Source: Thermoplasmata archaeon
GTDB taxonomy: Archaea > Thermoplasmatota > Thermoplasmata > Lutacidiplasmatales > UBA184
Reading direction: 5' to 3'
Assembly (NCBI GenBank): GCA_035945215.1
Contig: DASZAJ010000002.1
Location: 34,129-98,128, forward strand
DNA: 64,000 nt
The stretch's first letter is position 1, and each line of letters starts with the position of its first letter. Below the pieces are notes generated by a model that searched no databases, was not told the DNA's origin, and saw only the letters and a list, made by a program, of their open reading frames with translations. This document shows, in pieces, positions 1-41,201 of this stretch. The position numbers were made by a program, and so were the translations under genes.

Positions 1-1950
1 TGTCCGAGCCCGATCCGAGCGTGGAGACCGCGGAGAAGACGACGGTCTGGCCGACGTCCGCCGAGGACCGGCTCGCCGCGGCGCTGAGGGTGGGGTCGGC
101 GAAGACCGTCAGGGTGACCGATCCGCTCGACGTGCCCACGCCGTTCGAGTCGATGACGTGGACGGAGACCACGAAGGCGGCCGAGCTCGTCACGGAGTTC
201 GGCGCCACGCAGCTGACGGTAGCCGTCGATCCGGAACAGCCCGAGGGGAGGCCCGACCAGCTGTAGCTGAAGCCGCCGCTGCCCAGTGCGGCGGTGGCCG
301 TGAACGAGACGAGTTGGCCGACGTCGGCGCTCGCCCGGGTCTCACTCGCCGACACCGTCGGGTCGGAGAAGACGGTGAACGCAAGCGGGCTGCTCGTGAC
401 CGACTTCGCGTTCGAGTCGGTCACCGTGGCGCTCACCGTGGAGGCGGCGGGCGTGGTCACGGTACAGCTGACGTCGGGGGAGGCCGGTGCCGCCGGGCAG
501 CCGGCGGGCAGCCCGGTCCAGGCGAACGCGTAGGTGCCCGATCCGGAGGCCGCCGTGGCCGTGAAGACGACGGTCTGCCCCACGTCCGCCGATACCGGCG
601 ACGCCGATACCGTGACCGTCGGATCCGGGAAGACGTTGAAAGTGACGACGTTGCTCGAGGCCGACATTCCGTTGGAGTCGGTCACCGTCTCCGAGACCAG
701 GTAGGTTCCCGAGGTGGTCACGGACGCGCAGGCCACCGAGGCCGTCGCCGGGCTCGCCGGGCAGCCGGCCGGTAGGCCCGTCCAGGCGATGGTGACGCCG
801 CCCGAGCCGCCCACGGTCGTCGAACCGAAGGTCACCGGCTGACCGATGTCCGCCGAGGCGACGCTCGGGACGACGGAGGTCGCCGGGTCGGCGAAGACGG
901 TGAAGCTCAGCGGGGCGCTCGTGGCCACGAAGCCGTTCGAGTCCGTCACCTGCGCGGTGATGGAGTAGGTGCCCGCGGCGCTCGGGTTGCAGGTGACCGT
1001 GCCGCTCGACCCGCTGCAGCCCGTCGGAAGGCCGGCCCACGCCCACAGGAGACCGCCGGAGCCCGACGAGGTCGGGAGATCCGTGAAGGTCACGGCCTGG
1101 CCGACGTCGGCGGACGCGCGGCTCGGCGAGGGCGACGCGAGCGCGGGGTCCGAAAAGACGGAGAACGACGTCGCTCCGCTCGATCCACTGCCCCCGTTCG
1201 AGTCGGTGACGGTGACGCTGACCGAGAAGCTCCCGGAGGCGCTGACGGTGCACGTGATGGAGGCCGTGGTCGGTGCGATCGGACAGCCCGTCGGCAAGCC
1301 GCTCCAAGCAAAGGTGAACCCGCCGGATCCGCCGGCGGCCGCAGCGCCGAAGTTGACCAGTTGTCCGACGTCGGCCGACGCGGCCGAGGGCGATAGGGAG
1401 ACCGTCGGATCCGCGTCCACCACGAACAATAGGGTGCTGCTCGTGTAGGAGCCGCCGATCGTGCTGTACGGCCCGTCGGTCACCGTCGCCGAGATCGAGT
1501 AGGTCCCGGCGGTTCCGAGGCTGGCGCAGGTGACGGTTCGGGTCGTGGTGCCCGAGCAGCCGGCCGGTAGACCGTTCCAGGAGAAGACGAGCCCCCCGGC
1601 GGTCCCGCCAGATTCGATCGTACTGAACGTCACGGATTGGCCGACGTCGGCGGAGGTCCGCGATGCCGTGGGGGTGGTGACGGTCGGATCCGGGTTCACG
1701 ACGACCGTCATGCTCGAGGTGGCCGTGCTCCCCACATTGTCGGTGACGGTCACCGTGGCGGTGTACCCGCTCGGGCCCGACGCTGTGGCGTAGGCGTGGC
1801 TGGCGGTCGGCGAAGCCGTGGTGGCGGTCGCGCCGTCGCCAAAGCTCCAGGCGTAGGAGGCGTACGGCGTGAATCCGAGCATCGCCGTGGCCGTGAACGT
1901 GACGGTGACGCCGACGTCCGTCGGGGGCTCGCTCGCGGGGGACGTTAGGG
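1..1950 (-). repeat. One canonical PKD domain followed by about 7 PKD-like Cys-pair repeats
   Basis: YAWSFGDG near 1840. Repeats of DVGQxVxF...W-x-GLP-x-GC...C...VTD with DVG near 1650, 1370, 1110, 850, 580, 320 and 55. Confidence 0.8.
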
Positions 1951-4900
1951 CGAGGCTGACGGTCAGGTCGGTGGTGACGGTGTAGTTGAAGCTCGCCTGG
2001 AGGCCCGTATCGGTGGCGGTGATGAGGACCGGCCCCGCCGCTTCCCGGGGGATGGTGAACGTCCCGCAGGTGAAGCTTCCGTTGGCCAGGGTCGAGGTCG
2101 ACGGACAGATGCTCGACCCGGAGGAGCCGACGGGGGTCCAGACGACGTTAACGGTCTGGGAGGCGAAGAAGCCCGTCCCGTTCACCCAGATGACCCCGCC
2201 CACCATCAGGTCGTCCGGCTGGGCGATGATGGTCGGAACCACGGTGAGTCCGGCGGTCGCCGAATTCGAGTGCGCGTCGGTCCCGGTCAGGGTGTACTTT
2301 GCCGCCGGCGTGGCCGGTATCACCGAGCTGCACGAGAACGTCCCGAGGGCGTCGGCGGTCCCCGAGCACAGGGTACCCGGCGTCCAGGTGACCGTGACGG
2401 TGTCGCCCGCGGTAAACCCTTGGCCGTCGACGGTGACCGTGGTGCCCGCGATCCCGTAGCCTCGGGCCTCGCCGCTCGTCGGGGTTACGATGATGAACGG
2501 CCCGACGGTGAACACGGCGCTCGCGGTGTTGGTCGCCGGGTCCACCGCCGTTACGGCGTGACCGCCGATCGGAGCGGAGGGCACGGTGAACGTGCAGGTG
2601 AATCCGCCCGTGGCGCTCGTCGAGAGCGAGCCGGAGGTGCAGGTGAGGCTGGTCGTAGGGCCGCTCCAGGTCAGGGTCACGGACGACGACCCGATGAACC
2701 CGGTTCCGGTGGCGGTGGTCGAGCTGCCCACGATCCCGGCCGACGGGGTGAGAACGAGGTTCGATCCCACCAGGTACGTGGCCGTCGCCGAGTTGCTCGA
2801 CGTATCGGTGGCCGTTACGAGGTGGCCCCCGTGGACGGCCGCCGGTACCGTGAACGAGCAGGAGAAGAAACCGGTGGCGTTCGTCGTCGCGCTGCACAGG
2901 GCGAGGGCGCCCGGCGCCCAGGTGACCGAGGTCACGAGCGCGCCGCCGAAACCGTTCCCGATCGCGGTGGAGGTCGATCCGACCACCCCCACGGCCGGGG
3001 CGAGCGCGAGGCTCGAGACGATCGTGAACGTGCTGGACGCCGAATTGGACGACGCATCGGTCGCGGTCACGGAGTGGGGTCCCGCGACCGCCGGGGGGAC
3101 CTGGAAGGCGCAGGTGAACGACCCCGTGGCGCCGGTGACGAGCGAGCCGCTCGTGCACGCGAGGCCGATGTTGGGGGCGGTCCAGGCGAGGCCCACGTTG
3201 GAGGTGCCGGCGAATCCGGTGCCCGAGGCAGTCGTGCTGCTGCCGACGATACCGCTCGTCGGGCTGAGGACGAGCTTCGCCGTCACGGTGAACGAGGTGG
3301 TCGCCAAGTCGCTCGCGGCGTCCGTACCGGTCACCGTGTGGGCGCCATTGACGGCGGCCGGGACGACGAAGGAGCAGCTGAAGTCACCGGTGGGATTCGT
3401 CGTGGAAGTGCACAGGGTCGCTCCGCCCGGTGACCAGGAGACGGTCACCGCCGAGCTACCGGCATACCCGTGGCCCGATGCCGTGACGGGGGTGGCCACC
3501 GGCCCGACCGAGACGCTCAAGGAGATCGAAGGGGCGACGGTGAACGTCGCGCTCGCGGTCTGGGCGCCGGCGCTGCCGGTCACCACGTTCGCGCCGATCG
3601 GGGCGCTGGGAACGGTGATCGAACAGCTCCAGTCGCCGACCGCGCCCACGGTGCCGGTCGGGGTGCAACTGACCGCCCCGCCCGAGAAGGTGACCGAGAA
3701 CGACGCGCCGCTCGGGAACCCGGCCCCGGTGACGACCACGCTCGTGCCGACGATCCCGCCCGTCGGACTGAGGCTCAAACTGGGGGCGACCGTGAACGTC
3801 GCGGTGGCGCTGTTGCTCGAGGCGTCGGTCCCCGTGACCGTGTGGGCGCCGGTGACCGCATGGGGGACGGTGAAGGTGCAGGTGAACGATCCCACGGTCG
3901 ACGAGGAGGCGGTGCACAACGTAGCCCCGCCGGGCGACCAGGTCACGGTCACCGCAGCACTCCCGGCATACCCGGTCCCGGTGGCCGTCGCGGAACTACC
4001 GACGATCCCCGAGGAGGGGGCGAGGGCGAGGCTCGCGTCGACCGTGAAGGTCGCGCTCGCGCTGTTCCCCGATCCGTCCGCGGCGACGAGGGTGTGGGCC
4101 CCGTGGACGGAGGGGGGGACGGTGAACGTCAGGTCATACGAACCGGTGGCGGGGGAGGACGCGGAGCCGCCCACGATCGTCGACCCATCCCAGGTGTCGG
4201 GGCTGGGGAAGATCAACAACGACGATCCATAGCCGGTCATGAAAGCGACGAACGTCGAACCGACCACGCCGCTGGTCGGCGAGAGGACCACATGGGGCAC
4301 CACCGTGAACGACGTCGACGCGGTGTGCGAGCTCGCATCCGTCGCCGCGACCGTGTGAGCCCCGGCGAAGGCGGCCGGCACGGTGAACGTGCAGCCGAAC
4401 CCGCCCGCGGAGGAGGTCGTCAGGGAACCGGAGGTGCACGATAGGGTCGTGGAGCCGTCCCAGGTCAGCGTGATCGTGCTGGCGCCGGCGTACCCCGTGC
4501 CGGTGACCGTCGCCGAGCTTCCGACGATGCCGCTGGTGGGCGATATGGTCAGGTTGGCGACGATCGAGAACGTTGCCGACGCCGTATTCGACGCGGCATC
4601 GGTCGCGGTGATCGCGTGGGCCCCAAAGACCCCGGCAGGGACCGTGAACGAGCAGGCGAACGCGCCCGTGAGGTTCGTCGAACCCGTGCAGACCGTCACG
4701 GCGCTCACGGAGGCGAAGCTGACCGATACGGCCGCGGCCGAAGCGAACCCGTTCCCGAGCACGCTGACGGAGCTCCCGACGGCCCCCATCGCCGACCCCG
4801 GCGCGGTGATCACCAGGCTCGAGGACGTCACGAAGGTGGCCGATGCGGTGTTCGACGACGCGTCGGTCGCGCGGACGAGATGGCCCCCGGCCGTCGAGGG

Positions 4901-7900
4901 TGGGACCAGGAACGTGGCGCTGAACCCCCCCGTCGAGTCCGAGGTGAACGTCGCCTGGGGGGCCGAGGAGCACGAGCTTCCGCCGGTGCAGGTGAGGGCC
5001 TGGCTGCCGCCCCAATTCATCGAGACGGTCGAGCTGGCCGCGAACCCCGTGCCCGTGACGGTGACCGTGGTTCCAACCGCTCCGCCGGTCGGAGCGAGCG
5101 TGATCTTGGAGGTCACCGTGAACAAGGCGCTCGCGGTACTCGCGTTCACCGACGAGTCGGTGCCGTGGAACGTGTAGGTACCCGCGGCGGTCGCGGGGAC
5201 CGTGAAGAAGCTCCCGCACGCGGCGGGGGTGAAGCTCCCCGACGAGTTCGCGCTCAGGGTGCAGACGAACGTGATCGAGGTCCACGATACGCTGACGGTG
5301 ACCGAGGCGGAGGCGCCGTAACCCGATCCGCTCACCGAGACGACCGTTCCGACGGGCCCGCTCGTCGGGGATACGGTGAGCGTCGGCTCGACGGTGAAGA
5401 TCGTGCTCGCCGCGTTGGTGCCGTCGGAGCCGGTGACGGAGTGGCCCCCTTGGAAGGCGATCGGTACGGTGAACGAGCAGCTGACATCGCCGACCGCGTT
5501 GCTCGTCGCGGAGCACAGCGTCCCGCTCGGCTTCCAGCTCATCGTCACACTCGCGGTTCCGGCAAAGCCGGTCCCCGTGGCGGTCACCGAGGTTCCCACC
5601 TGGCCGCTCGTGGGGACGATGGAGACCTCGGGAAGGATCGAGAAAGTGGCCGTGGCGGAGTTGGCGGTCGGGGACGCCGAGTCGGTACCCGTCACGGTAT
5701 GGCTGCCGGCGACGGCGTGCGGCGCGGTGAAGCTGCACGAGAAGCTGCCGAAGGAGTTCGTGGTGGCGGTGCACAAGGTCGCGCCGCCGGGCGCCCAACT
5801 GACCGTCACCGCGGAAGCGGCCGCGAACCCGAAGCCGGTCGCGGTGATCGCGGTGGTCCCGACCACGCCGCTCGTGGTGCCCAGCGTGAGGCTTGGGAGC
5901 ACCTTCAGCGTGGCACTCGCCGTGTTGGAGGCACTGTCCGTCGCGGTGGTCGTATAGGTCCCGGCGGGAGTTTGTGGGATCGAGAAGACCGCGCAGGAGA
6001 AGTCACCGGTCGACGCGACCGAGCCCGTGCAGCTGAAGGTGGTCGGTCCGGCGAAGGTGATGCTGGCGGTGATCGACGCGCCGGAGGCGAACCCGGTCGC
6101 GGCCCAGCCATAGGCGGTCCCTTCGGTCCCGCTCGTGGGCGAGATCGAAAGGGCCGGCTCCACGGTAAAGCTCGAGGTCGCTGAGCTTGGCGAACCGCTG
6201 GACTCGGTTCCGGTGATCGTGTACGTGCCTTGGGCCGTGTGGGCGACCGTGAAGGTGCACGACCACTGCCCGAGGGCGGAGACCACGGATCCCACGGTGC
6301 AGCTGATCGTGCTCGCCGCCGACCAGGTGACCGTGACCGAGGCCCCGGTCGAGTACCCGTTCCCGCTGACGGTAGCCGAACTGCCGACGATGCCGCTCGT
6401 GGGGGAAACCGATTCACTGGGCCCGACGGTGAACGGAGCGGAAGCGGTGTTGCTTGCGGCATCCGTCGCCGTGACGCTGTGGGCTCCCTGATCGGCGGTC
6501 GGGACGGTGAACGAACAGCTGAAACCGCCGGTGGCGCCCGTCGTGGCCGTGCACAGCGTGCCCGCCCCGGACGGACTCCAAGTCACGGTGGTGCTCGACG
6601 ACGCCGCGAACCCGGTTCCGGTGATCGTGGAGGAGGACCCGACCGGCCCGCTCGTCGGCGACAGGGAGACCGCGCTCGTCACGCTGAACATCGTCGCGGC
6701 CGAGTTGGTCGAGCTGTCGGTGGCGGTCACGGTGTGGCTCCCCGCGACGGCGGCCGGAACGGTGAAGCTGCACGAGAAGTCGCCCGCCGCGCTGGTGGTC
6801 GCCGAACACAGGGACGCCGCCCCCGGGGACCAGGTGACGGCCGTCAGCGAACCGCCGGCGAAGCCGTGACCCGACACGGTGACACTGGTGCCGACCGGAC
6901 CGGAGGTCGGGGAGAGTTGGATCGTCGAGACGACGGTGAAGGTGGCGCTCGCGGTGTTGGAGGAATGGTCGGTCGCACTGACCGTATGAGCTCCGATCAC
7001 CGCCGATGGCACTGTGAACGTGCAGGTGAAGGTACCGTTCGCGTGGGTCGTGATGGCCCCCTGGGTGCACGTCATGGCGGCCGCGTCGAAGGAGATCGTG
7101 GTAGTGGAGCTGCCCGCGAAGCCGGTCCCGGTGGCGGTCAGGGTGCTGCCGACCGGTCCACTCGAGGCGGATAGCGCCAGGCTGGGATTCACGGTGAAGG
7201 AAGCCGCGGCGGAGTTCGACGAACCGTCGGTCCCCGTGACGGTGTGGACTCCCTGAACGTCCGACGGGACCTGGAAGGTGCAGCTGAACGACCCCGAGCT
7301 GTTCGAGGTCGCCGTGCAGACCGTGATCGAGCCGGGCGACCAGGTCACCGTGACCGAGGACGAGGCCGCAAACCCACTGCCCGACGCGGTCGCGCTCGAC
7401 CCGACCACGCCGCTGGAGGCCGAGAGCGTCACCTGCGACGAGACGGTAAAAGTCGCCGTGTTGAAGTTGGAAGGAATGGCATTGTCGGCCGCGGTCACCG
7501 TATGCGTGCCCTGGACGGCGGGGGGGACCAGGAAGGAGCAGGAGAAGCCGCCGCCCGAACTGGTCGTTGCCGAGCACAACGCGACGGCGTTGGGCGACCA
7601 CGTGACGGCGACCGAAGCCGTGGCGGCGAACGAGGTTCCCGTGACGGTCACGCTCGTGCCGACGGGGCCGCTCGAGGTGGACAGGGAGATGCTGCAACCG
7701 CTGTTGCAGGTCGCCAGCGGCCGGGCCGGCGCGGCTCCGCCCGACGGAGCGCTCGTCGTCCAGTACGTTGCCAAGGCGGTATTCGGGGGGGAAGCCAGGT
7801 CGGTGGCGGTGACCGAGTGGGGCCCCACGGCACCCGTGGGCACGACGATCGGACAGACGAACGAGCCGTCCGCCGCTGTCGACGCCGTCTGGCCGGCGCT

Positions 7901-9580
7901 GCAAAGGATCGGGCTGTTGTCCCAAGCGATCTGGACGGGCGTGGAACCGGCGAACCCGCCCCCGATGAGATCGATGATCGTGCCGGCCGGGCCGCTACCC
8001 GGGGCCAGGGTAAGGCTCGGAGTGACCAGGAGCGAGATACTCGGGGCTCCGCCGGAACCCGCGAGCGTCGTCAGGTCCCGAACATTCAGTTGGTGCGACC
8101 CGGCGGTGGCCGCTGGGACCACGAACAGGCAGGAAAATCCGCCATTGGCGGTTACCGTGGTGCACAGCGACTTCGACGATGTGTCCCAGCCCACAGCGAC
8201 CTTCGAGTTCTCCCAGAATCCCGTACCGGTAAGGACCACGTAGGCTCCCACCGCAGCGGTCGCCGAAGAGAGGGCCAGAGCCGGCGCGACGTCGACCGCC
8301 CCGGAGGGAATGGCCAGGACCCCGTTCGACTCGATGGCGAGTGTGTGCGGTCCGCGCACCGTGGCCGGGACGGTGATCGCGCATTCGACAGAGCCGGTCG
8401 GCGTGGTCTTCAGGGTGACCGACGAACAGGCGATCGTCGCCCAATCCCACAGGACCGAGTACGCGGCGTTCGCCGGGAGGCCCTCCGCCGAAACCGAGAT
8501 CGTGTCGCCGACCTGGGCGTTTTGGGTGGACAGCGAGGCGCTCGGCCCGACCGAGACGGTGGCGCCGACCGAGATCGTCGAACCGCCGCCCAGGATCTGG
8601 GCTATGATGGGGTGCGCGCCGTTCGAAAGGGTCGGGACAGTGAAACCACACCGGAACGTTCCGGACGCCGAGGCGACGCCCGCGCATGCCGCACCCCCGG
8701 CGGCCCACTGAATCTCGACGTTGGCGAAAGCGGGGAACCCGGTTCCGGTGGCAATTTCGGATTCGCCGACGGTGGCGGTCGCCTGGGATAGGACGACGCT
8801 CGGAGTGACGGTGAAGCCGACCCTCACCGAGGCGGAGGCGGAACCCGCGCCCCCCGAGTAGGAAAGGAAGTGCTGACCCTCCGGTGAGGAGGGCACGAGG
8901 AATGAACAGGTTAGGCTTCCCAGGCGGTCGGAGACCGTGGTGCAAACCGACCCGATCAGGGGCCATTCGAGTGAGATGCGTTCGAACGCGGGGAACCCCG
9001 TGCCTATGGCGTTCGCGCGCGTCCCGACGCTCCCTGAGTGCGAAGAAAGACCTAGTGTCGGGGTAACCACGAACGTCGCGCTAGAGGTATCGGCGATCCT
9101 CGCCGAATCGGCGACCGTCACGGCGTGCGGTCCAGCGGGGCCAGCCGGGACTTTCAATGAGCAACTGACCACCCCTGCTGCGCTTGTGAGGGGAGAAAGG
9201 CTTGAACACGGAATGGCCGCTCCATCCCAGGCGACTGTGAAGGCCGAACTCGGGAGAAACCCGGAACCCGTGACGACAAGTGAGGTCCCGACCCCCCCTT
9301 GGCTCAAGAACAAGGACAAGCCGGGGTTCAGAGCGGGGTTCGACCGCAGGCTCGGCGAACCGGCAAGGGCGCCATGCGAGGCCCCCTCCGGTCCTATCGC
9401 GTGATTAGAGATCCCAAGCGTCCCCCCGGAAGCTCCGAAGAGTGTAGACAAAACCATCGCGAGTAGGACAGTCCAGATCACGAGGGTCATCCCTCGGGGG
9501 CGAGGTTGTCGCGATGCAGACTCGCTGACAAAATGCTCGTTCGGCCGGCTGGGAGACTCCGGGCTCAAGGAGGAGGGCAT
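1..9580 (-). CDS. Giant exported repeat protein, >3,190 aa, 3' end beyond the left edge: signal peptide, about 28 Ig/IPT-like Cys-pair repeats, then PKD and PKD-like repeats
   Basis: Hand translation from ATG 9580 (alternative ATG 9490) gives MPSSLSPE...MTLVIWTVLLAMVLSTLFGASGG (hydrophobic leader), then repeats such as GSFTCTFTVP. The same frame at 58 reads DVGQTVVFSAVSTLGSGS. Every sampled segment is in this frame and the track lists no closed ORF in it, consistent with an ORF that has no stop inside the window. Confidence 0.9.
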   Translation of the reverse strand, partial: MPSSLSPESPSRPNEHFVSESASRQPRPRGMTLVIWTVLLAMVLSTLFGASGGTLGISNHAIGPEGASHGALAGSPSLRSNPALNPGLSLFLSQGGVGTSLVVTGSGFLPSSAFTVAWDGAAIPCSSLSPLTSAAGVVSCSLKVPAGPAGPHAVTVADSARIADTSSATFVVTPTLGLSSHSGSVGTRANAIGTGFPAFERISLEWPLIGSVCTTVSDRLGSLTCSFLVPSSPEGQHFLSYSGGAGSASASVRVGFTVTPSVVLSQATATVGESEIATGTGFPAFANVEIQWAAGGAACAGVASASGTFRCGFTVPTLSNGAHPIIAQILGGGSTISVGATVSVGPSASLSTQNAQVGDTISVSAEGLPANAAYSVLWDWATIACSSVTLKTTPTGSVECAITVPATVRGPHTLAIESNGVLAIPSGAVDVAPALALSSATAAVGAYVVLTGTGFWENSKVAVGWDTSSKSLCTTVTANGGFSCLFVVPAATAGSHQLNVRDLTTLAGSGGAPSISLLVTPSLTLAPGSGPAGTIIDLIGGGFAGSTPVQIAWDNSPILCSAGQTASTAADGSFVCPIVVPTGAVGPHSVTATDLASPPNTALATYWTTSAPSGGAAPARPLATCNSGCSISLSTSSGPVGTSVTVTGTSFAATASVAVTWSPNAVALCSATTSSGGGFSCSFLVPPAVQGTHTVTAADNAIPSNFNTATFTVSSQVTLSASSGVVGSSATASGSGFAASSSVTVTWSPGSITVCTATSNSSGSFSCTFQVPSDVQGVHTVTGTDGSSNSAAASFTVNPSLALSASSGPVGSTLTATGTGFAGSSTTTISFDAAAMTCTQGAITTHANGTFTCTFTVPSAVIGAHTVSATDHSSNTASATFTVVSTIQLSPTSGPVGTSVTVSGHGFAGGSLTAVTWSPGAASLCSATTSAAGDFSCSFTVPAAVAGSHTVTATDSSTNSAATMFSVTSAVSLSPTSGPVGSSSTITGTGFAASSSTTVTWSPSGAGTLCTATTGATGGFSCSFTVPTADQGAHSVTATDAASNTASAPFTVGPSESVSPTSGIVGSSATVSGNGYSTGASVTVTWSAASTISCTVGSVVSALGQWSCTFTVAHTAQGTYTITGTESSGSPSSATSSFTVEPALSISPTSGTEGTAYGWAATGFASGASITASITFAGPTTFSCTGSVASTGDFSCAVFSIPQTPAGTYTTTATDSASNTASATLKVLPSLTLGTTSGVVGTTAITATGFGFAAASAVTVSWAPGGATLCTATTNSFGSFSCSFTAPHAVAGSHTVTGTDSASPTANSATATFSILPEVSIVPTSGQVGTSVTATGTGFAGTASVTMSWKPSGTLCSATSNAVGDVSCSFTVPIAFQGGHSVTGSDGTNAASTIFTVEPTLTVSPTSGPVGTVVSVSGSGYGASASVTVSVSWTSITFVCTLSANSSGSFTPAACGSFFTVPATAAGTYTFHGTDSSVNASTASALFTVTSKITLAPTGGAVGTTVTVTGTGFAASSTVSMNWGGSQALTCTGGSSCSSAPQATFTSDSTGGFSATFLVPPSTAGGHLVRATDASSNTASATFVTSSSLVITAPGSAMGAVGSSVSVLGNGFASAAAVSVSFASVSAVTVCTGSTNLTGAFACSFTVPAGVFGAHAITATDAASNTASATFSIVANLTISPTSGIVGSSATVTGTGYAGASTITLTWDGSTTLSCTSGSLTTSSAGGFGCTFTVPAAFAGAHTVAATDASSHTASTSFTVVPHVVLSPTSGVVGSTFVAFMTGYGSSLLIFPSPDTWDGSTIVGGSASSPATGSYDLTFTVPPSVHGAHTLVAADGSGNSASATFTVDASLALAPSSGIVGSSATATGTGYAGSAAVTVTWSPGGATLCTASSSTVGSFTCTFTVPHAVTGAHTVTGTDASSNSATATFTVAPSLSLSPTGGIVGTSVVVTGAGFPSGASFSVTFSGGAVSCTPTGTVGAVGDWSCSITVPSAPIGANVVTGSAGAQTASATFTVAPSISLSVSVGPVATPVTASGHGYAGSSAVTVSWSPGGATLCTSTTNPTGDFSCSFVVPAAVNGAHTVTGTDAASDLATTSFTVTAKLVLSPTSGIVGSSTTASGTGFAGTSNVGLAWTAPNIGLACTSGSLVTGATGSFTCAFQVPPAVAGPHSVTATDASSNSASSTFTIVSSLALAPAVGVVGSTSTAIGNGFGGALVTSVTWAPGALALCSATTNATGFFSCSFTVPAAVHGGHLVTATDTSSNSATATYLVGSNLVLTPSAGIVGSSTTATGTGFIGSSSVTLTWSGPTTSLTCTSGSLSTSATGGFTCTFTVPSAPIGGHAVTAVDPATNTASAVFTVGPFIIVTPTSGEARGYGIAGTTVTVDGQGFTAGDTVTVTWTPGTLCSGTADALGTFSCSSVIPATPAAKYTLTGTDAHSNSATAGLTVVPTIIAQPDDLMVGGVIWVNGTGFFASQTVNVVWTPVGSSGSSICPSTSTLANGSFTCGTFTIPREAAGPVLITATDTGLQASFNYTVTTDLTVSLALTSPASEPPTDVGVTVTFTATAMLGFTPYASYAWSFGDGATATTASPTASHAYATASGPSGYTATVTVTDNVGSTATSSMTVVVNPDPTVTTPTASRTSADVGQSVTFSTIESGGTAGGLVFSWNGLPAGCSGTTTRTVTCASLGTAGTYSISATVTDGPYSTIGGSYTSSTLLFVVDADPTVSLSPSAASADVGQLVNFGAAAAGGSGGFTFAWSGLPTGCPIAPTTASITCTVSASGSFSVSVTVTDSNGGSGSSGATSFSVFSDPALASPSPSRASADVGQAVTFTDLPTSSGSGGLLWAWAGLPTGCSGSSGTVTCNPSAAGTYSITAQVTDSNGFVATSAPLSFTVFADPATSVVPSVASADIGQPVTFGSTTVGGSGGVTIAWTGLPAGCPASPATASVACASVTTSGTYLVSETVTDSNGMSASSNVVTFNVFPDPTVTVSASPVSADVGQTVVFTATAASGSGTYAFAWTGLPAGCPAAPASPDVSCTVTTPAASTVSATVTDSNAKSVTSSPLAFTVFSDPTVSASETRASADVGQLVSFTATAALGSGGFSYSWSGLPSGCSGSTATVSCVAPNSVTSSAAFVVSVHVIDSNGVGTSSGSVTLTVFADPTLSAAASRSSADVGQTVVFSAVSTLGSGSD
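1980..9300 (-). repeat. About 28 tandem, diverged ~87-aa protein repeats (~260-nt period)
   Basis: The motif G-x-F-x-C-x-F-x-V-P recurs near 9150, 8900, 8640, 8370, 8120, 7840, 7530, 7270, 7010, 6760, 6500, 6250, 5980, 5720, 5460, 5190, 4910, 4640, 4380, 4115, 3865, 3610, 3360, 3095, 2845, 2580, 2320 and 2050. Confidence 0.85.
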
Positions 9581-9593
9581 GTCGGCGCCACAA

Positions 9594-9751
9594 TAGCCAG
9601 TCTATATCATTGTTGTGGGAAAATTTCCGTTTTTTCGACGAAAAATCATCCCCTGATTCTGAATTGTATACTGTAAATGAAACTACGAATCCTAACTAGT
9701 TCGGCTTTGAGTCGGCTGAACTGAAATTGCATCCCTTTATATTCATCGAGA
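9594..9751. promoter_or_regulatory. AT-rich divergent promoter region with two TATA-like boxes and palindromes
   Basis: Minus-strand GATATAG at about 9602-9608, roughly 25 nt before ATG 9580. Plus-strand TTTATAT at 9736-9742, roughly 25 nt before GTG 9767. Palindromes: ggaaa-a-tttcc (9618-9628), tttttcg-a-cgaaaaa (9631-9645) and aactagtt (9694-9701). Confidence 0.65.
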
Positions 9752-11188
9752 ATGTGCCGCGCGCTTGTGCGGGTGGCTCCGTCGATCGTTCTTTCGCGCG
9801 CGGAGGGTCGGGAACTCAACGCATTGTGCACGAGCCCCGGGACCCTTCCGAGATTGGCGCTACGGGCATGGATCGTGCTCCGATCTTCCGAAGGGGTCGA
9901 CAACCGAACTATCGCATCCGAATTCATGGTGGACGAGGCGACGGTGGCGCTCTGGAGACGAAGATTTCTGGTCCATCGAATCGCCGGAATCCTCTCGGAC
10001 GCCCCCCGATCGGGCCGGAAGCCCAGGATTCCCGCTGCCCTCGTTGCCAAGATCGCTGCAGCTCGGAGCGTAGGACCATTCGGGGCGGCGAATACTCCGA
10101 CGAGCCGGGCGGTCGCGCGAGAGATGCGGGTCAGCCAATCCACGGTCGTAAGAATCTGGAAGACCCACGAAGGCCCGACCTCCACCGACGTATCGGTCGA
10201 TGAGGACACCCCCCTTCCCGCTCGGCCCATCCGGGATGTTCGAGGCATCTACCTCTGCGGTGAGGATCGGTGCGTGGTGCTCATCTCCCAGAAGGACGAG
10301 CCCACGTCGGCCATCGAAGCGCGGGACACGGGAACGAGACACTCGCGAGGACCGCTTCCGGTCGAAACCCCCCGTCGTCCCCCTCGGGACCCGTTGGCGG
10401 CGGTTCGTGTGATCTATCGTACCATACTTCCGGAACCCGGGGCTCACGACCGACTGGGGGATTTCCTACTCTTCCTCCGAGGCGTCGAGTTCCACCTCGG
10501 CCCAAATGAGATTGCCCATGTCCTGCTCCAGACGAGCCTTCTCGGGAAGGACGCGACGCTCCTTCGGTGGTTGCGCCGTCGGCCCGGGTTCGTATTGTAC
10601 CTGTCGTCCGCCGGGACGACCCCCAGCCGTCCGAGCTTCGATTTGCCCGATGGCCTCACGACGCAGGGGGTGCGTCCCAGCAGCCTGCGCAGTCTTCCGA
10701 AGCTGATCGACGCCTTCCGGGTCTTTTCGGTGACTTCGGATCGCCATCCGCGCCCATTTGCCTGGACCCTTCCCGAAGTCCCGTCCTCGGCGTCGATCGC
10801 GAGCCATCGCGCTCCGACGCCGCGAGCGGTCTCGGTCACCGCGCATTGGCTGACACCGCCCATCCTCGGGAGCGAGGCGAATACCCTGGGTGGGTCGATC
10901 GGGGCGGAGCCTATCGCGCCGTCCACGTCGATGGCTTTCCTTCCGATTCGGGCGGGCTTGGCGGGAGGGTTCGCGACTCGCCTCGAACCCCCAGCCATTC
11001 CACGGGGTTCCTTGCCTTCGGGCGCACCGATTTCGGAGGCATCGAACGTAACGCCCACCGGTCCTTCGGATGGCCCATCCTCCTCGATCGCGTCCGGGGT
11101 CCCATCGTCCCCAGGGCCCCTGGACGGGCGTCTTCGGAAGGCCCCCCCCGGTTCCCATTCCCCCTCGCCACGAGAAGGGACCGGGTAG
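9752..11188 (+). CDS. IS630-family transposase homologue with intact HTH region, degenerate DDE domain and Pro/Ser-rich tail (probable start GTG 9767)
   Basis: LALRAWIVLRSSEG, TVALWRRRF, DAPRSGRKPRI, DVRGIYL and HPRPFAWT match IS630 blocks. The usual LxxDN reads LLQT and the usual WLNxVE reads SRPSFD. Confidence 0.85.
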   Translation: MCRALVRVAPSIVLSRAEGRELNALCTSPGTLPRLALRAWIVLRSSEGVDNRTIASEFMVDEATVALWRRRFLVHRIAGILSDAPRSGRKPRIPAALVAKIAAARSVGPFGAANTPTSRAVAREMRVSQSTVVRIWKTHEGPTSTDVSVDEDTPLPARPIRDVRGIYLCGEDRCVVLISQKDEPTSAIEARDTGTRHSRGPLPVETPRRPPRDPLAAVRVIYRTILPEPGAHDRLGDFLLFLRGVEFHLGPNEIAHVLLQTSLLGKDATLLRWLRRRPGFVLYLSSAGTTPSRPSFDLPDGLTTQGVRPSSLRSLPKLIDAFRVFSVTSDRHPRPFAWTLPEVPSSASIASHRAPTPRAVSVTAHWLTPPILGSEANTLGGSIGAEPIAPSTSMAFLPIRAGLAGGFATRLEPPAIPRGSLPSGAPISEASNVTPTGPSDGPSSSIASGVPSSPGPLDGRLRKAPPGSHSPSPREGTG

Positions 11189-13459: not shown

Positions 13460-16072
13460 CTACGTCGGTTCGTCCGGAGGTCGCCGGCTGGACCGGCGGG
13501 AAGAGGCCCCTCGGGGGGCCTTCCCCCGCCACAACGACTGCCCGATCCAGATCGCGACGCCGGCCCCCGCCACGGCCGCGAGGATGAGGAGACCGAAACC
13601 TTCCGTCGCGGGCAGGCCGAGCACATCCGAGGAACCTGGCGCCCGGACCGCGTTGGCCCGGAAGTTGACGGTCACCGTGACCGCCGACCCATTGATCAGG
13701 AACGCCCCCTCGCGCGGAGTCGACGTGAATCCGGCGACCGGGGCGACGCTGTACCCGTAGGTCCCGTTGGACAGACCAGGGAAGCGGATCGAACCCGATC
13801 CGCTGGCGGGCTTCCCGTCCAGGGTCACGCTCCACCCAGCCCCCGTCGGCAAACCCTTCTCCTCGAAGATGACCGGGTAGGTCACGGGGACGAAGGCGAC
13901 GGCCTCCAGGAGTGAGACGCCGGCCACGTTGGACGTCCCGAACGCGTTCCCCAGCGGTGTGTAACTCGAGTTCGACGATGCCAGCGTGTAGGTGTAGCTT
14001 CCGTTCGTGAGCGCGAAGCTGATGTTGGCGCCGACGGAGTGGGCGACCGCACCGCCGGTCAGGTTCACCGACCACGCGCCCCCGATCGGCAGGCCCGTTT
14101 CGACGAAGGTAACCGCGAAGGTAACGTCGCTGAACCGCACCGGGACATTGGCGGGCCCGCCGACCACCGCGAACTGGCCCCCCGGCGCGATGAAGCGCGG
14201 ATCCTGGACCGCGATGGAATAACTGTAGGTTCCGTTCGCGATCTGAAGACCCAGATCGGACGTCGCCCCGGCGAGCAGGGGTCCCCCGGTGAGGTTCACC
14301 CACCAGCCGACGCCCGTCGGCAATCCGACCTCCGCGAAGTCGACGGCGTACACGACCTCGGTCCAGGCCACGAGGCGGCTGACCGAAGCTCCGTGGACAT
14401 CGATGCTCCCGGTGAAGTTCGTCGTCGTCCAACCCGCGATCCCGGCGACCCGGAACGGGTACGTCCCATTCCTCTCGAGGAAGTGGATCGAGGCGACCGT
14501 CGGGCCGAGCGAGACACCCCCCAATGTGACCGACCACGCCGTGGACGTCGGGAGTCCCGTCTCCGCGAAATTCACATTGTAGGTGACGGGTACAAAGGTC
14601 AGCGGCGAGGTCACGTCGGTGCCATTGACCGAGACCGTACCGCTGCGAGCGGCGAAGGTCGGATCGCTGGAGGTGACGGTGAAATTGTACACGCCGTCCC
14701 CGGCCCGCACGATCAGCTCGGAGGTGTTCGAGGAGGCGATCGGCTCGCCGGTGACGTTCACCGACCAAACCGTCCCGCTCGGGAGCCCTGATTCGTTGAA
14801 GATGATTCGGTGCCAAGTCGGGAAGAAGCTCACGTTGTTGGACCCGAAATTGACGACGTAGATGTATCCGTTCGCCGGGTCGTAGGCCGTCGCCCAGGGA
14901 TAGGAGCCGGCGGGCACGGAATATAGTACCGAAGTGCCGTCGATCACGCTCACGTTGTTGGACGCGTCGTTGGCGACGTAGACGTAGCCATTGCCGTCGT
15001 TATAGCTCGGGAGCTCGGGTCCGGATCCGACTGGGATCGTCGCGATGACCAGTCGGTCATGGAGCACACTGACGGTCCCGCCCACGGCATTCGCGATGTA
15101 TACGTCGCCCGAGCGAGCATCGTAGACCCCCGAATAGGGGCCGGACCCCACGGGGACCGTGGTGAGCACGGTGGTGTTGTTGAGGATGCTCACCGAGTTG
15201 GCCCCGTAATCGGGTACATAGACCTCCCCGTTCGAGGGGTCGAAGATCGGGGTCTCGGGCTCGCCCGAGACGTTCACGGTGCGGATGAGCTGGGTGCCGT
15301 TGAGGACGCTCACCGTGTTCGAATTGTAATTCGAGACGTAGACCCGGCCCGTGGCGCTGTCGAACGCCAGTCCGTCGGGGCTCATCCCGACCGTGACCGT
15401 CCGAACGAGGCTGGTCCCGTTCAAGATCGACACTGCATTGACGTTGTCGTCGACGACGTAGACGTAGCCGTTCGCCGGGTCATACCCGATCGCGTAGGGA
15501 CCGTATCCGGCCCCGGGCGACCCGACCAGTTTCGTCCGATTGAGCACGCTCACGTTGTTGCTCGCCGAGTTCGCCACGTACACCCATCCGTTCCCCGGGT
15601 CGAAGGTGGCCTGGGCCGGGGAACTCCCGAGGCTCGGCGAGGCGATGACGCGGGAGCCGTTGATGATGCTCAGATTGTTCGAGCCGCCATTGATCACATA
15701 GACCCATCCGTTCGCGGTATCGACGGTGGCGGCAATGGGGGTCATGCCCACGTGGACCGAGGATACGTTCGGGGCGTGGGGGGCCATCGGCGGGACCGTT
15801 CGACCACCCTCGGGAACCGGTCCGGACCGAGGGACCACCGGGGACCCGGCAACCGTCCCAGTGGCATTGCTCGGGGACGTGGTGGGCCCTGAAAGGTCGG
15901 CTGCCGAGTACGGGACGTTCACCGTGGTCCGGTGGGGGCTCACCAATGACAGACTACCGACGTGGAAAGACCCTTCCCCCGGGACCCATCCGTTACTGGG
16001 AAGGAGCAAGGCGAGCGCGACGATCGCGAGCCAAATCGGTACGGCCGGGCGGCCCGGACCGAACGTCAGCAC
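13460..16072 (-). CDS. Surface protein: 8 YVTN/YncE-type propeller repeats, 5 thermopsin-type repeats, C-terminal TM anchor
   Basis: Eight GxxP...DxxNGxVYVxNxxSNxVS repeats; five VxFxExGLPxGxxWxVxL repeats; signal peptide; TM followed by a basic tail; many N-x-S/T sequons. Confidence 0.9.
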   Translation of the reverse strand: MLTFGPGRPAVPIWLAIVALALLLPSNGWVPGEGSFHVGSLSLVSPHRTTVNVPYSAADLSGPTTSPSNATGTVAGSPVVPRSGPVPEGGRTVPPMAPHAPNVSSVHVGMTPIAATVDTANGWVYVINGGSNNLSIINGSRVIASPSLGSSPAQATFDPGNGWVYVANSASNNVSVLNRTKLVGSPGAGYGPYAIGYDPANGYVYVVDDNVNAVSILNGTSLVRTVTVGMSPDGLAFDSATGRVYVSNYNSNTVSVLNGTQLIRTVNVSGEPETPIFDPSNGEVYVPDYGANSVSILNNTTVLTTVPVGSGPYSGVYDARSGDVYIANAVGGTVSVLHDRLVIATIPVGSGPELPSYNDGNGYVYVANDASNNVSVIDGTSVLYSVPAGSYPWATAYDPANGYIYVVNFGSNNVSFFPTWHRIIFNESGLPSGTVWSVNVTGEPIASSNTSELIVRAGDGVYNFTVTSSDPTFAARSGTVSVNGTDVTSPLTFVPVTYNVNFAETGLPTSTAWSVTLGGVSLGPTVASIHFLERNGTYPFRVAGIAGWTTTNFTGSIDVHGASVSRLVAWTEVVYAVDFAEVGLPTGVGWWVNLTGGPLLAGATSDLGLQIANGTYSYSIAVQDPRFIAPGGQFAVVGGPANVPVRFSDVTFAVTFVETGLPIGGAWSVNLTGGAVAHSVGANISFALTNGSYTYTLASSNSSYTPLGNAFGTSNVAGVSLLEAVAFVPVTYPVIFEEKGLPTGAGWSVTLDGKPASGSGSIRFPGLSNGTYGYSVAPVAGFTSTPREGAFLINGSAVTVTVNFRANAVRAPGSSDVLGLPATEGFGLLILAAVAGAGVAIWIGQSLWRGKAPRGASSRRSSRRPPDEPT

Positions 16073-26170: not shown

Positions 26171-26611
26171 ATGCGAGAGTACCCAGCCCCGTTGCACATC
26201 CTTCTCGCCGAGGACAACCCGGCGGACGTCCGCTTGATGCGCGAGCTGCTCAAGGAATCGACGATCGTCACCGAGCTGCACGTGGTGTCCGACGGGGAGG
26301 AAGCGGTCGCGTACATGCGAAAGCGGGGCAAGTACGTCGACGCCCCACGGCCCAATCTCGTCCTGCTCGATCTGAACATGCCCAAGCGCGACGGCCGCTC
26401 CGTCCTCCGGGAGGTCAAGGCCGATCCGGAGCTCAAGCGGATCCCGGTGATCGTGCTGACCACCTCCGGAGCGGAAGAGGACATCCGACAGTCCTACGAT
26501 GCCCACGCCAACTGCTACGTCCGGAAACCCACCGACTTCGCCGATTTCCAAACGATCTTCCAAAAATTCGAGACGTTCTGGTTCACCGCGGCGGAAATTC
26601 CTACCACCTGA
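26171..26611 (+). CDS. Stand-alone response regulator (Rcp1-like)
   Basis: LLAEDNPAD, LLDLNMP, VLTTS and YVRKP. Confidence 0.92.
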   Translation: MREYPAPLHILLAEDNPADVRLMRELLKESTIVTELHVVSDGEEAVAYMRKRGKYVDAPRPNLVLLDLNMPKRDGRSVLREVKADPELKRIPVIVLTTSGAEEDIRQSYDAHANCYVRKPTDFADFQTIFQKFETFWFTAAEIPTT

Positions 26612-26633
26612 CGGGGGGGAGCCCCGAAGGAGC

Positions 26634-40873: not shown

Positions 40874-41201
40874 GGGTTCCTGGGCGACGGACGCTCGCCT
40901 CGATGATAAATCAAGGCGCAAAATCGACCTCGATGGTTCGCCGGGGCAGCACCGATCCGGTCGGTTCTCCGGGCGATGCTGGTGGACTATCGAGGGGCCC
41001 GGAGGCGAACCCAAGAGCCCAGCCTTCTGGGAGCGGTTCTCGTCTCGACAACTCATCGGACCATTTCCATAGGCGACGGGCTGGCTGAGGCAGCAGGGAA
41101 AGCGATGACCCCTCCCATCGACCTTCATTCGGGGCGCTACGTTATCGCCGGTTCACCGGCCATCACGAAGTTTAAGAAACGGCCCCCCTACGAGAGCTGC
41201 C

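What the first reader, a model, noticed from the sequence alone, without database searches (positions are those of the whole stretch)
1..9580. Giant (>3,190 aa) surface protein missing from the ORF track
Seen: one minus-strand frame runs from ATG 9580 off the left edge, with a signal-peptide-like leader and about 36 tandem beta-rich modules. The track shows only its out-of-frame and antisense shadows. Inference: a very long filament or adhesin that projects beyond the cell envelope. Its terminal domain and anchor lie outside this window.
Basis: partly seen in the sequence, partly recalled or inferred. Interest (0 to 1): 0.7.

Follow-up and report, generated by a model that had tools for sequence, protein, structure and literature searches.

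The report
Large archaeal Ig/PKD-repeat surface protein
The open frame is real: it is the first two thirds of a roughly 4,670-residue, membrane-anchored surface protein of a soil Thermoplasmata archaeon, built from about 51 beta-sandwich modules; it is large, but it belongs to a big and already catalogued (though functionally untested) family.

Summary
Observation confirmed. The minus-strand frame from ATG 9580 to base 2 has 3,193 codons and no stop (about 57 expected by composition). GC3 is 0.88. It encodes a Sec-type leader, 28 Ig-like two-Cys modules of about 86 aa, then 7.3 PKD-like modules.

A 100% identical public contig carries the gene as a 4,518-aa call that starts at an internal GTG (9121). 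Counted from ATG 9580 the protein is about 4,671 aa and ends about 4.4 kb left of the window.

Two orthologs (56% and 66% identity) are collinear module for module. They share the MPSS/MAPS leader and a divergent HTH_32 neighbour. They end in more PKD modules, one TM helix, an RRR stop-transfer and a 58-85 aa cytoplasmic tail.

The module profile finds 13,452 representative proteins, some up to 7,284 aa. Named relatives are all Thermoplasmata "IPT/TIG domain-containing", "beta strand repeat-containing" or "hypothetical" proteins.

Best reading: a type-I anchored, disulfide-braced stalk whose fast-evolving N-terminal tip (Ig1-6) sits far from the membrane. A role in adhesion or contact is inferred, not shown.

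It is a new member of a known kind, of modest interest. The anchor of this copy was not read directly, and no transcript data were available.

The parts
2..9580 (-). 5' part (3,193 of about 4,671 codons) of the large surface-protein gene. The gene continues about 4,436 nt beyond window position 1.
   Evidence: Open frame with GC3 of 0.88. A 100% identical Logan contig carries a 4,518-aa gene call that starts at 9121.
9601..9610 (-). TATA-like element (ATGATATAGA; ATATA at -27..-23 from the ATG). Candidate archaeal promoter of a leaderless transcript.
   Evidence: Read from the sequence. The ortholog has TATAT at -25..-21. The promoter function is inferred.
9419..9580 (-). Leader, aa 1-54: basic n-region, hydrophobic core aa 31-48 (window 9437-9490), then GASGG, a candidate signal-peptidase site.
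   Evidence: The leader and the M(P/A)(S/P)S start are conserved in P0021 and in L004 frame 2.
7745..9325 (-). Ig-like modules 1-6 (aa 86-612). These form the membrane-distal tip and are the most divergent block.
   Evidence: Identity to the orthologs is 38-52% here against 55-89% elsewhere.
7697..7744 (-). Linker aa 613-628 that contains an extra Cys pair (CNSGC). It is strongly conserved in the orthologs.
1958..7696 (-). Ig-like (IPT/TIG-like) modules 7-28 (aa 629-2541), each 82-99 aa. Every module has either two Cys or none.
   Evidence: AF2 single module: pLDDT 97.9, seven-strand sandwich. Three-module model: pLDDT 96.4, pTM 0.83.
2..1957 (-). PKD-like modules 1-7 plus the start of module 8 (aa 2542-3193). 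This is the membrane-proximal block, which continues outside the window.
   Evidence: Pfam PKD 37.1 bits (cutoff 23.5) and PKD_4 36 bits (cutoff 27). Module HMM.
9944..11188 (+). Divergently transcribed HTH_32 / winged-helix gene (the ORF is open from ATG 9752). It is a conserved neighbour of the gene in all three genomes and a possible dedicated regulator.
   Evidence: Pfam HTH_32/HTH_29. 51% identity to the L003 neighbour. Also present in L004. The regulatory role is inferred.

Best explanation
Window 2-9580 (minus strand) is the 5' two thirds of a real gene of a high-GC soil Thermoplasmata archaeon.

The product is about 4,671 aa counted from ATG 9580. It is a type-I membrane protein. A Sec-type leader takes the chain across the membrane. 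The ectodomain is a collinear string of about 51 beta-sandwich modules: 28 IPT/TIG-like Ig modules, each braced by a Cys pair, followed by about 23 PKD-like modules. By the orthologs, the chain ends in one TM helix, an RRR stop-transfer and a 58-85 aa cytoplasmic tail.

Adjacent modules run strand-into-strand without linkers. The ectodomain should therefore be a stiff stalk, on the order of 150-200 nm if fully extended (inferred from about 3.5 nm per Ig domain in SiiE-type arrays). It holds the fast-evolving N-terminal modules Ig1-6 far from the membrane.

The most likely role is contact or adhesion to other cells or particles, or a spacer/brush on the cell surface.

Shown here: the gene, its architecture within the window, the fold, the family and the taxon of its relatives.
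Inferred from orthologs: the anchor and the tail.
Inferred from anatomy only: the length and the adhesive or spacer role.
For: - Open frame and coding signal.
- Purifying selection between strains: 32 of 39 substitutions at codon position 3, and only a frame-restoring indel pair.
- Identical sequence in two independent assemblies.
- Gene call of 4,518 aa on the identical contig.
- Module anatomy.
- Cys always in pairs: 68 Cys = 34 pairs. One module lacks both Cys, and so does the same module in P0019, while P0021 has both.
- AF2 models: pLDDT 97.9 for one module; pLDDT 96.4 and pTM 0.83 for three modules.
- Foldseek hits of the three-module model to the extender regions of SiiE, a large adhesion protein, Bap and the ice-binding adhesin.
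- Orthologs: P0021 (4,377 aa, 56% id over all 3,193 aa) and L004 (about 4,679 aa, 66% id). They are module-for-module collinear with almost no gaps.
- Ortholog C-termini carry a TM helix, RRR(R) and a tail.
- The leader and start are conserved in three genomes.
- The TATA-like box lies at about -25 in two genomes.
- The tip modules are the most divergent.
- Named relatives are Thermoplasmata proteins.
- The neighbours in the window are also type-I TM-anchored PKD/Kelch/NHL proteins.
Against: - The last 1,478 residues of this copy could not be read, so its TM anchor and tail rest on orthologs at 56-66% identity.
- No signal-peptide predictor was available. An uncleaved N-terminal anchor would make a double-anchored loop, and this is not excluded.
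- No transcript or peptide evidence: no RNA run holds the sequence.
- No recognisable ligand-binding, lectin or enzymatic domain.
- TM-scores to adhesin extender arrays are low (0.2-0.3), so only the kind of architecture is shared, not its geometry.
- The closest relative, L004, has a net +1 frameshift. The gene may be dispensable in some lineages, or that assembly may carry an indel error.
Confidence: 0.72

Rival explanations
1. It is a structural envelope component, not an adhesin. Many copies would form a canopy, S-layer-like coat or glycocalyx-type brush that protects a cell lacking a rigid wall. The length would set the thickness of a pseudo-periplasmic space.
For: - Same anatomy as in the main explanation.
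- Module number and order are strictly conserved across three genomes, which suggests length itself is under selection.
- The genome neighbourhood is rich in TM-anchored PKD/Kelch proteins of the type described for archaeal surface layers (Jing et al. 2002 as cited in PMC5498576).
- A Haloferax S-layer protein appears among the Foldseek hits.
- One third of the residues are Ser/Thr, and the protein is acidic.
Against: - A roughly 50-domain monomer is far larger than known S-layer subunits.
- There are only 10 N-glycosylation sequons in 3,193 aa.
- The distal tip evolves about twice as fast as the stalk, which fits an interaction surface better than a lattice.
- No lattice-forming domain is recognisable.
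Confidence: 0.18
2. The protein is released from the cell by cleavage near the membrane or at the conserved CNSGC linker. It would then act as an extracellular matrix or biofilm fibre rather than as a tethered stalk.
For: - The linker at aa 613-628 between the tip block and the stalk is unusually conserved (62-69% identity, with an identical CNSGCSISLSTSSGPVGTSVTV stretch beside it).
- Bap-type biofilm proteins are among the structural matches.
Against: - No protease site or autoprocessing domain was identified.
- The conserved TM helix and the conserved cytoplasmic tail motif in the family argue that the anchor is used.
Confidence: 0.07
3. It is a bacterial RTX-type giant adhesin exported by a type I secretion system (SiiE/LapA/MpIBP class).
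For: Tandem Ig-like extender architecture. Foldseek hits to SiiE (2yn3), 6xi3 and 5irb.
Against: - It has an N-terminal Sec-type leader instead of a retention module.
- The orthologs end in a TM helix and tail, with no RTX repeats and no NCBIfam or Pfam hit of that kind.
- No ABC/MFP/OMP genes lie nearby.
- All named relatives are archaeal.
Confidence: 0.01
4. The open frame is a by-product of high GC content (an antisense shadow of plus-strand genes), a pseudogene, or an assembly artefact of collapsed repeats.
For: In 70% GC DNA long shadow ORFs are common; several of 300-550 aa overlap this region.
Against: - Zero stops where about 57 are expected.
- The plus-strand frames are broken 20-170 times.
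- 13,452 homologous representative proteins.
- AF2 pLDDT of 98.
- Third-position substitution bias between strains.
- No DNA-level tandem repeats to collapse.
- Two assemblies are identical.
Confidence: 0.01

Closest known systems
Ortholog in NCBI assembly GCA_030040915.1, contig JASHSI010000122.1 (P0021, 4,377 aa), and the split ortholog on ENA ERZ25039458 contig_5858 (L004, about 4,679 aa)
   Same: - Same leader (MPSS/MAPS...LFGAS.G).
- Same 28 Ig-like modules in the same order, with the CNSGC linker, followed by PKD-like modules.
- Same divergent HTH_32 neighbour.
- 56% and 66% identity over the whole window part.

   Different: - P0021 has about 3 fewer PKD-like modules.
- L004 carries a net +1 frameshift.
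- The downstream neighbours (AhpC, FecCD, ABC) do not seem to be shared with this contig: no AhpC hit lies on a 58,899- or 214,140-bp contig.
Thermoplasmata proteins that NCBI names 'IPT/TIG domain-containing protein' or 'beta strand repeat-containing protein' (e.g. HLM70697.1, MGP8109752.1; cluster of P0020) and many 'hypothetical protein [Thermoplasmata archaeon]'
   Same: Same two-Cys Ig-like module in long tandem arrays, with an N-terminal leader, a C-terminal TM helix and a basic stop-transfer.
   Different: - Most are 800-2,800 aa and lack the PKD block.
- Many carry a stronger version of the cytoplasmic tail motif (EDIDALIARLERMSxQMFKK) than the orthologs of this protein.
Archaeal surface-layer proteins with PKD and beta-propeller domains (Methanosarcina; Jing et al. 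2002, as cited in PMC5498576)
   Same: PKD modules on the archaeal cell surface. The neighbourhood holds Kelch/NHL/YVTN + PKD + TM proteins. A role in cell-cell interaction has been proposed for these.
   Different: Those proteins are far shorter and combine propellers with a few PKD domains. Here there is no propeller and about 51 tandem sandwiches.
Giant bacterial Ig-repeat adhesins (SiiE, LapA-type 'large adhesion protein', MpIBP, Bap)
   Same: They work alike in outline: a long extender of tandem Ig-like domains that places a tip far from the cell. They are the best multi-domain structural matches.
   Different: - Different export (T1SS against a Sec leader).
- Different anchoring (outer-membrane retention module against a C-terminal TM helix).
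- Ca2+-bridged BIg domains against disulfide-braced modules.
- No RTX repeats.
- Low TM-scores (0.2-0.3).
- Bacterial, not archaeal.
Pfam IPT/TIG (PF01833), Big_6 (PF17936) and NCBIfam GxPGS_dom (NF058592)
   Same: Seven-strand Ig-like/E-set sandwich of about 85 aa. Weak sequence matches to all three.
   Different: - Scores sit at or below the curated cutoffs: TIG 21.4 vs 20.9; Big_6 24.8 vs 27.6; GxPGS 25 vs 45.
- Only 11-13 of the 28 modules match even at E <= 0.1.
- A 15-module relative (P0029) gets no Pfam hit at all.

Membership tests
PKD domain (Pfam PF00801 / PF18911) | Sequence score above Pfam's gathering threshold | tested here: met
   PKD 37.1 bits (cutoff 23.5) and PKD_4 36.0 bits (cutoff 27), aa 2546-2628. 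PKD/PKD_4 hits are also on record for the 4,518-aa call. The ortholog scores 88 and 71 bits.
PKD domain (Pfam PF00801 / PF18911) | Tandem beta-sandwich units of about 85 aa | tested here: met
   Seven complete units and one partial unit with a period of 86-93 aa, aa 2542-3193.
IPT/TIG domain (Pfam PF01833) | Sequence score above the gathering threshold | tested here: inconclusive
   Whole protein 21.4 bits vs cutoff 20.9. The ortholog scores 19.6, below the cutoff. Only 11 of 28 modules match at E <= 0.1; Big_6 matches 13 of 28.
IPT/TIG domain (Pfam PF01833) | Seven-strand Ig-like (E-set) beta-sandwich fold | tested here: met
   AF2 pLDDT 97.9 with seven strands. Foldseek returns only generic Ig-like/E-set matches (macroglobulin MG, CGTase domain, neocarzinostatin, CARDB), the best at E = 2e-3.
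Thermoplasmata two-Cys Ig-module surface proteins (no curated name) | Tandem copies of the 84-position module profile | tested here: met
   28 copies here. The profile finds 13,452 representative proteins at E <= 1e-3 and 1,494 at E <= 1e-30. Named members are Thermoplasmata proteins.
Thermoplasmata two-Cys Ig-module surface proteins (no curated name) | C-terminal TM helix, basic stop-transfer and cytoplasmic tail | not testable with these tools
   The 3' end lies outside the window and could not be fetched. The feature is present in both orthologs and in 69 of the 150 top family members, many of the rest being fragments.
RTX / type I secretion giant adhesins (SiiE, LapA, MpIBP) | Adjacent T1SS genes (ABC transporter, membrane-fusion protein, outer-membrane factor) | tested here: not met
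   None in the window or on the identical contig within 14 kb upstream. None next to the orthologs.
RTX / type I secretion giant adhesins (SiiE, LapA, MpIBP) | N-terminal retention module and no Sec leader; C-terminal RTX repeats and T1SS signal | tested here: not met
   A Sec-type leader is present. The orthologs end in a TM helix and tail, with no RTX family hit. The C-terminus of this copy was not read.
PGF-CTERM / archaeosortase-anchored archaeal surface glycoproteins | PGF-CTERM sorting signal at the extreme C-terminus | tested here: not met
   Tested on the orthologs only. NCBIfam scan of P0021 gives no sorting-signal hit. The TM helix is followed by 58-85 further residues. This copy is not testable.

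The most novel reading that the evidence does not exclude
The family is more than a passive stalk. Many members carry a conserved amphipathic motif in the cytoplasmic tail, behind the TM helix: (E)PEDIDxLIARLERMSxQMFKKxPKEL. The orthologs of this protein have a diverged form, NID(E/Q)TLAELEAIS.

This motif could dock an intracellular partner such as a cytoskeletal, sorting or ESCRT-like factor. These roughly 50-domain ectodomains would then be mechanically or functionally coupled to the cell interior. That would be an archaeal counterpart of integrin- or cadherin-type transmembrane adhesion receptors.

The motif is not covered by Pfam and has no significant match among PDB sequences.
Probability: 0.1. 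Interest if true: 0.7.

Novelty: new member of a known kind. Interest (0 to 1): 0.32.

Why it matters
The practical lesson is that a roughly 14-kb gene can drop out of an ORF listing simply because it runs off the window edge. Automatic gene callers also set its start about 150 codons too far downstream in two independent records.

Biologically, the gene documents a strictly collinear, roughly 51-module, C-terminally anchored surface stalk in uncultured soil Thermoplasmata. These archaea have a poorly known cell surface.

The fast-evolving distal tip and the conserved cytoplasmic tail motif of the family give concrete and cheap hypotheses to test: tip binding and tail partners. The kind of protein itself is not new. 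Large tandem Ig/PKD surface proteins are well known, and thousands of relatives are already in public databases under generic names.

Tried and rejected
- Searching the whole 3,193-aa fragment with the search for homologous proteins timed out.
- Searches with the N-terminal 640 aa and with a C-terminal chimera returned only proteins of about 1,250 aa or less. That tool cannot return the protein itself or its large orthologs. The chimera was the last 300 aa of the window part joined to the last 420 aa of P0021.
- Exact 60-mer searches of genome contigs and metagenome contigs found nothing.
- Protein-guided scans found no close relative in genome contigs. The best relatives in JGI metagenomes had at most 43% identity.
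- I tried to walk past the gene through the ortholog's downstream AhpC gene. This failed because no AhpC homolog sits on the 58,899- or 214,140-bp contig. The missing 1,478 residues therefore could not be read.
- The look-up of the 478-aa HTH ORF was not on record.
- P0018 (7,284 aa) is too long for the look-up of encoding contigs.
- No RNA run holds the sequence.
- Rfam and tRNA scans of the window were empty.
- TRF found no DNA-level module repeats.
- The idea that the tail motif is an ESCRT-III MIM1-like or LD-like motif got no significant support from a PDB sequence-profile search (best E = 0.13).
- The RTX-adhesin, PGF-CTERM and artefact readings were rejected, as set out in the membership tests and rival explanations.
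Full report

Yes. The reverse strand of window 1-9580 translates into 3,193 codons without a stop. Over the same bases the other five frames contain 11-170 stops, and none stays open for more than 622 codons. From base composition about 57 stops would be expected in this frame (P of none about 1.5e-25). GC at codon positions 1/2/3 is 0.52/0.68/0.88, the pattern expected of a coding frame in DNA of 70% G+C.

An in-frame TAG lies seven codons upstream of ATG 9580, and no alternative start codon lies between them. ATG 9580 is therefore the most upstream possible start.

The ORF listing omits ORFs that run off an end of the source. That is why only out-of-frame and antisense shadows of 80-554 aa are listed over this region.

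The sequence is not an assembly artefact:
- A 58,899-bp Logan contig of a soil metagenome run covers window 1-9800 with no difference.
- A second run assembled the same sequence independently (contigs of 9,752 and 5,112 bp, 0 differences).
- A 95%-identical strain from a different study shows only one compensated -1/+1 indel pair.
- Of its 39 listed substitutions, 32 fall on codon position 3 (P = 5e-10).
- Tandem Repeats Finder sees no DNA-level module repeats that could have been collapsed.

**2. Anatomy inside the window**

Residues 1-54 form a leader: a basic stretch (RQPRPRG), an 18-residue hydrophobic core (MTLVIWTVLLAMVLSTLF) and small residues (GASGG).

An iterated HMM delineates 28 modules of 82-99 aa between aa 86 and 2541, with the consensus PxLxLSPxSGxVGxSxTxxGTGFAxxxxVTVxW...C...GxFSCxFTVPxAxxGxHTVTATDxxSNxASATFTV. 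Mean column identity is 41%. Seven complete PKD-like modules and one partial one follow (aa 2542-3193).

The protein is 33% Ser+Thr. It is acidic (107 D+E against 32 K+R) and has only 10 N-X-S/T sequons.

Its 68 cysteines come strictly in pairs. There are two per module plus a CNSGC pair in the linker at aa 625/629. One module (Ig20) has lost both. The same module also lacks both in the closest relative, P0019, but has both in P0021. This coupled gain and loss argues for intramodule disulfides and hence an extracytoplasmic location (inference).

No other ORF of the window contains the module.

**3. Fold**

With the 28 paralogous modules as alignment, AlphaFold2 gives a seven-strand beta-sandwich at pLDDT 97.9. 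A three-module segment (Ig21-23) gives pLDDT 96.4 and pTM 0.83. The last strand of one module runs straight into the first strand of the next. This suggests a stiff, linker-less array; I could not inspect the coordinates.

Foldseek against the PDB gives only generic Ig-like/E-set matches for the single module, the best at E = 2e-3. For the triple module the top hits include extender regions of giant adhesins (SiiE 2yn3, 'large adhesion protein' 6xi3, Bap 7c7u, the ice-binding adhesin 5irb), invasin, titin and a Haloferax S-layer protein. TM-scores are only 0.2-0.3.

Curated sequence families cover the Ig-like module poorly:
- TIG 21.4 bits against a cutoff of 20.9.
- Big_6 and NCBIfam GxPGS_dom below their cutoffs.
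- 11 of 28 modules match TIG and 13 of 28 match Big_6 at E <= 0.1.

The PKD block passes Pfam's thresholds.

**4. The rest of the gene**

The Logan contig is 100% identical to window 2595-23281. On it the gene was called as a 4,518-aa product that starts at window 9121. That start is a GTG at residue 154, in the middle of module Ig1, and it cuts off the leader. Counted from ATG 9580, the protein is therefore about 4,671 aa. It ends about 4,436 nt to the left of window position 1, so 1,478 residues are missing.

I could not fetch that DNA (see section 8).

**5. Relatives**

A profile of the 28 modules, searched against 1.84 billion representative proteins, finds 13,452 proteins at E <= 1e-3 and 1,494 at E <= 1e-30. 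They include arrays of up to 79 modules (P0018, 7,284 aa).

Two are orthologs:
- P0021 (4,377 aa; NCBI GCA_030040915.1) is 56% identical over all 3,193 residues.
- P0019 (ENA ERZ25039458, a 977-kb contig) is 66% identical over aa 101-3193 of the window protein, the whole span that P0019 covers. There the gene is split by a net +1 frameshift into ORFs of 3,336 and 1,263 aa, spanning 14,041 nt or about 4,679 codons.

All three copies are collinear module for module with almost no gaps. They share the N-terminus (MPSS.../MAPS... and ...LFGAS.GT), although P0021 has no Met at the position of Met31. They also share a divergently transcribed HTH_32 gene (51% identity).

In the window and in L003 a TATA-like element lies 21-27 nt upstream of the ATG. 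This is the spacing expected for an archaeal promoter of a leaderless mRNA (established knowledge; function inferred). Together these points support ATG 9580 as the true start, against both automatic calls.

Both orthologs continue with PKD-like modules (20 in P0021; 13 in the last ORF of L004). They end with a hydrophobic helix (LELVAALIIVGLLVVAVAILLM / LELIAALLILIVVVIACVLIV), then RRR(R) and a tail of 58 or 85 residues ending in SKTNID(E/Q)TLAELEAIS.... NCBIfam finds no PGF-CTERM or other sorting signal.

The total length of L004 (about 4,679 aa) matches the 4,671 aa deduced for this copy. The missing part is therefore most likely about 16 PKD-like modules plus the TM helix and tail (inference).

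**6. Organism**

All relatives that carry a source name are from Thermoplasmata archaea:
- PKD proteins, thermopsin-PKD and kelch-PKD proteins.
- 'IPT/TIG domain-containing' and 'beta strand repeat-containing' proteins.
- 'Hypothetical' proteins.
- The peroxiredoxin next to the ortholog.

The runs that hold the sequence are soil metagenomes. The 62-71% G+C fits the soil order Lutacidiplasmatales, reported at about 69% GC in PMC9287336. That assignment is only a suggestion.

The window also encodes at least five other proteins with a leader, PKD/Kelch/NHL ectodomains and a C-terminal TM helix followed by basic residues. The same proteins are also on record from an NCBI contig of 214,140 bp, so the gene has very probably been annotated already.

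**7. How it most likely works**

Shown: a leader, 35 and a fraction beta-sandwich modules, paired cysteines, a high-confidence rod-like three-module model, purifying selection, and membership of a large Thermoplasmata family.

Inferred from orthologs: a single C-terminal TM anchor with a cytoplasmic tail, hence a type-I topology with the N-terminus distal.

Inferred from anatomy: about 51 modules at roughly 3.5 nm each would give a stalk of 150-200 nm. This uses the value known for SiiE-type arrays, taken from my own knowledge.

The six N-terminal modules are only 38-52% identical to the orthologs, while the stalk is 55-89% identical. This pattern is expected if the distal tip is the interaction surface and the stalk is a spacer of fixed length.

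I therefore favour a tethered contact or adhesion stalk (confidence about 0.7 for the architecture, about 0.45 for adhesion as such). The main rival is a structural canopy or brush (0.18). A shed matrix fibre is less likely (0.07). An RTX-type bacterial adhesin and an artefact are each about 0.01.

**8. What did not work**

- The full-length search timed out.
- The search for homologous proteins never returns proteins above about 1,250 aa.
- Exact and protein-guided scans of the genome and metagenome collections did not find this contig or a near-identical strain.
- Walking in from the ortholog's downstream gene failed because synteny is not kept on that side.
- No RNA run is available.

**9. 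Seen in passing**

At least 30 family members carry a strongly conserved cytoplasmic tail motif, (E)PEDIDxLIARLERMSxQMFKKxPKEL. It is not covered by Pfam and has no significant PDB sequence match. Its resemblance to MIM1 or LD motifs is from memory and was not supported.

**10. Verdict**

This is a new member of a known kind: tandem Ig/PKD archaeal surface proteins, in a family with thousands of database members. Interest is modest (0.32). The tail motif is the most promising lead towards something new.

Noticed in passing
Relatives outside the window: C-termini of P0005, P0029, P0035, P0048, P0067, P0079, P0082, P0091, P0122, P0003 and others; orthologs P0021 and L004:19956-23747: After the C-terminal TM helix, many family members share a cytoplasmic tail motif, (E)PEDIDxLIARLERMSxQMFKKxPKEL. 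The orthologs of the window protein have a diverged form, NID(E/Q)TLAELEAIS. Pfam has no family for it and no PDB sequence matches significantly. None of the other TM-anchored proteins in the window has it.
   Followed up: partly
window 13460-16072 (-), 18018-20294 (-), 29358-32273 (-), 38024-41128 (-), 61415-63580 (+): Five further large proteins with a leader, Kelch/NHL/lactonase-type propeller and/or PKD or DUF2341 ectodomains, and a C-terminal TM helix followed by basic residues. The region is dense in type-I surface proteins.
   Followed up: partly
window 9752/9944-11188 (+); L003:792-2165 (-); L004 about 8502-9519 (-): A divergently transcribed HTH_32/winged-helix gene sits next to the large gene in all three genomes (51% identity). 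It may be a dedicated regulator rather than a transposase. A conserved ATATAAAnnGATGCAATTT block lies in the shared intergenic region.
   Followed up: partly
window 9121 (GTG) versus 9580 (ATG); L004 10001 versus 9707: Automatic gene calls in two public records start the gene at an internal GTG inside module Ig1. They lose the conserved leader and about 100-150 residues.
   Followed up: yes
window 34677-35450 (+): A 257-aa protein with a TM helix followed by about 17 Gly-X-Y triplets (Pfam Collagen 27.2 bits, exactly at the cutoff) and a C-terminal globular part. This is a membrane-anchored collagen-like protein in an archaeal contig.
   Followed up: partly
L004:9707-23747: The closest relative of the gene spans 14,041 nt, which is not a multiple of 3. 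It is split into ORFs of 3,336 and 1,263 aa. This is either a single-base assembly error on a long-read-style contig or a real pseudogene.
   Followed up: partly
window about 39500-64000: G+C drops from about 0.67-0.70 to about 0.60-0.64 beyond roughly 39.5 kb. The gene content there shifts to transporters (MFS, CitMHS), GNAT and SnoaL-like proteins.
   Followed up: no
window 24646-26040 (+) and 26499-27857 (+): A PAS-HisKA-HATPase histidine kinase sits next to a receiver-PAS-Hpt protein. This is a phosphorelay pair inside the surface-protein-rich region.
   Followed up: no
P0018 (7,284 aa), P0024 (6,156 aa), P0160 (5,298 aa), P0132 (4,536 aa): Still larger members of the same module family exist, with up to 79 module matches. 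P0018 also ends in a TM helix and a tail.
   Followed up: no
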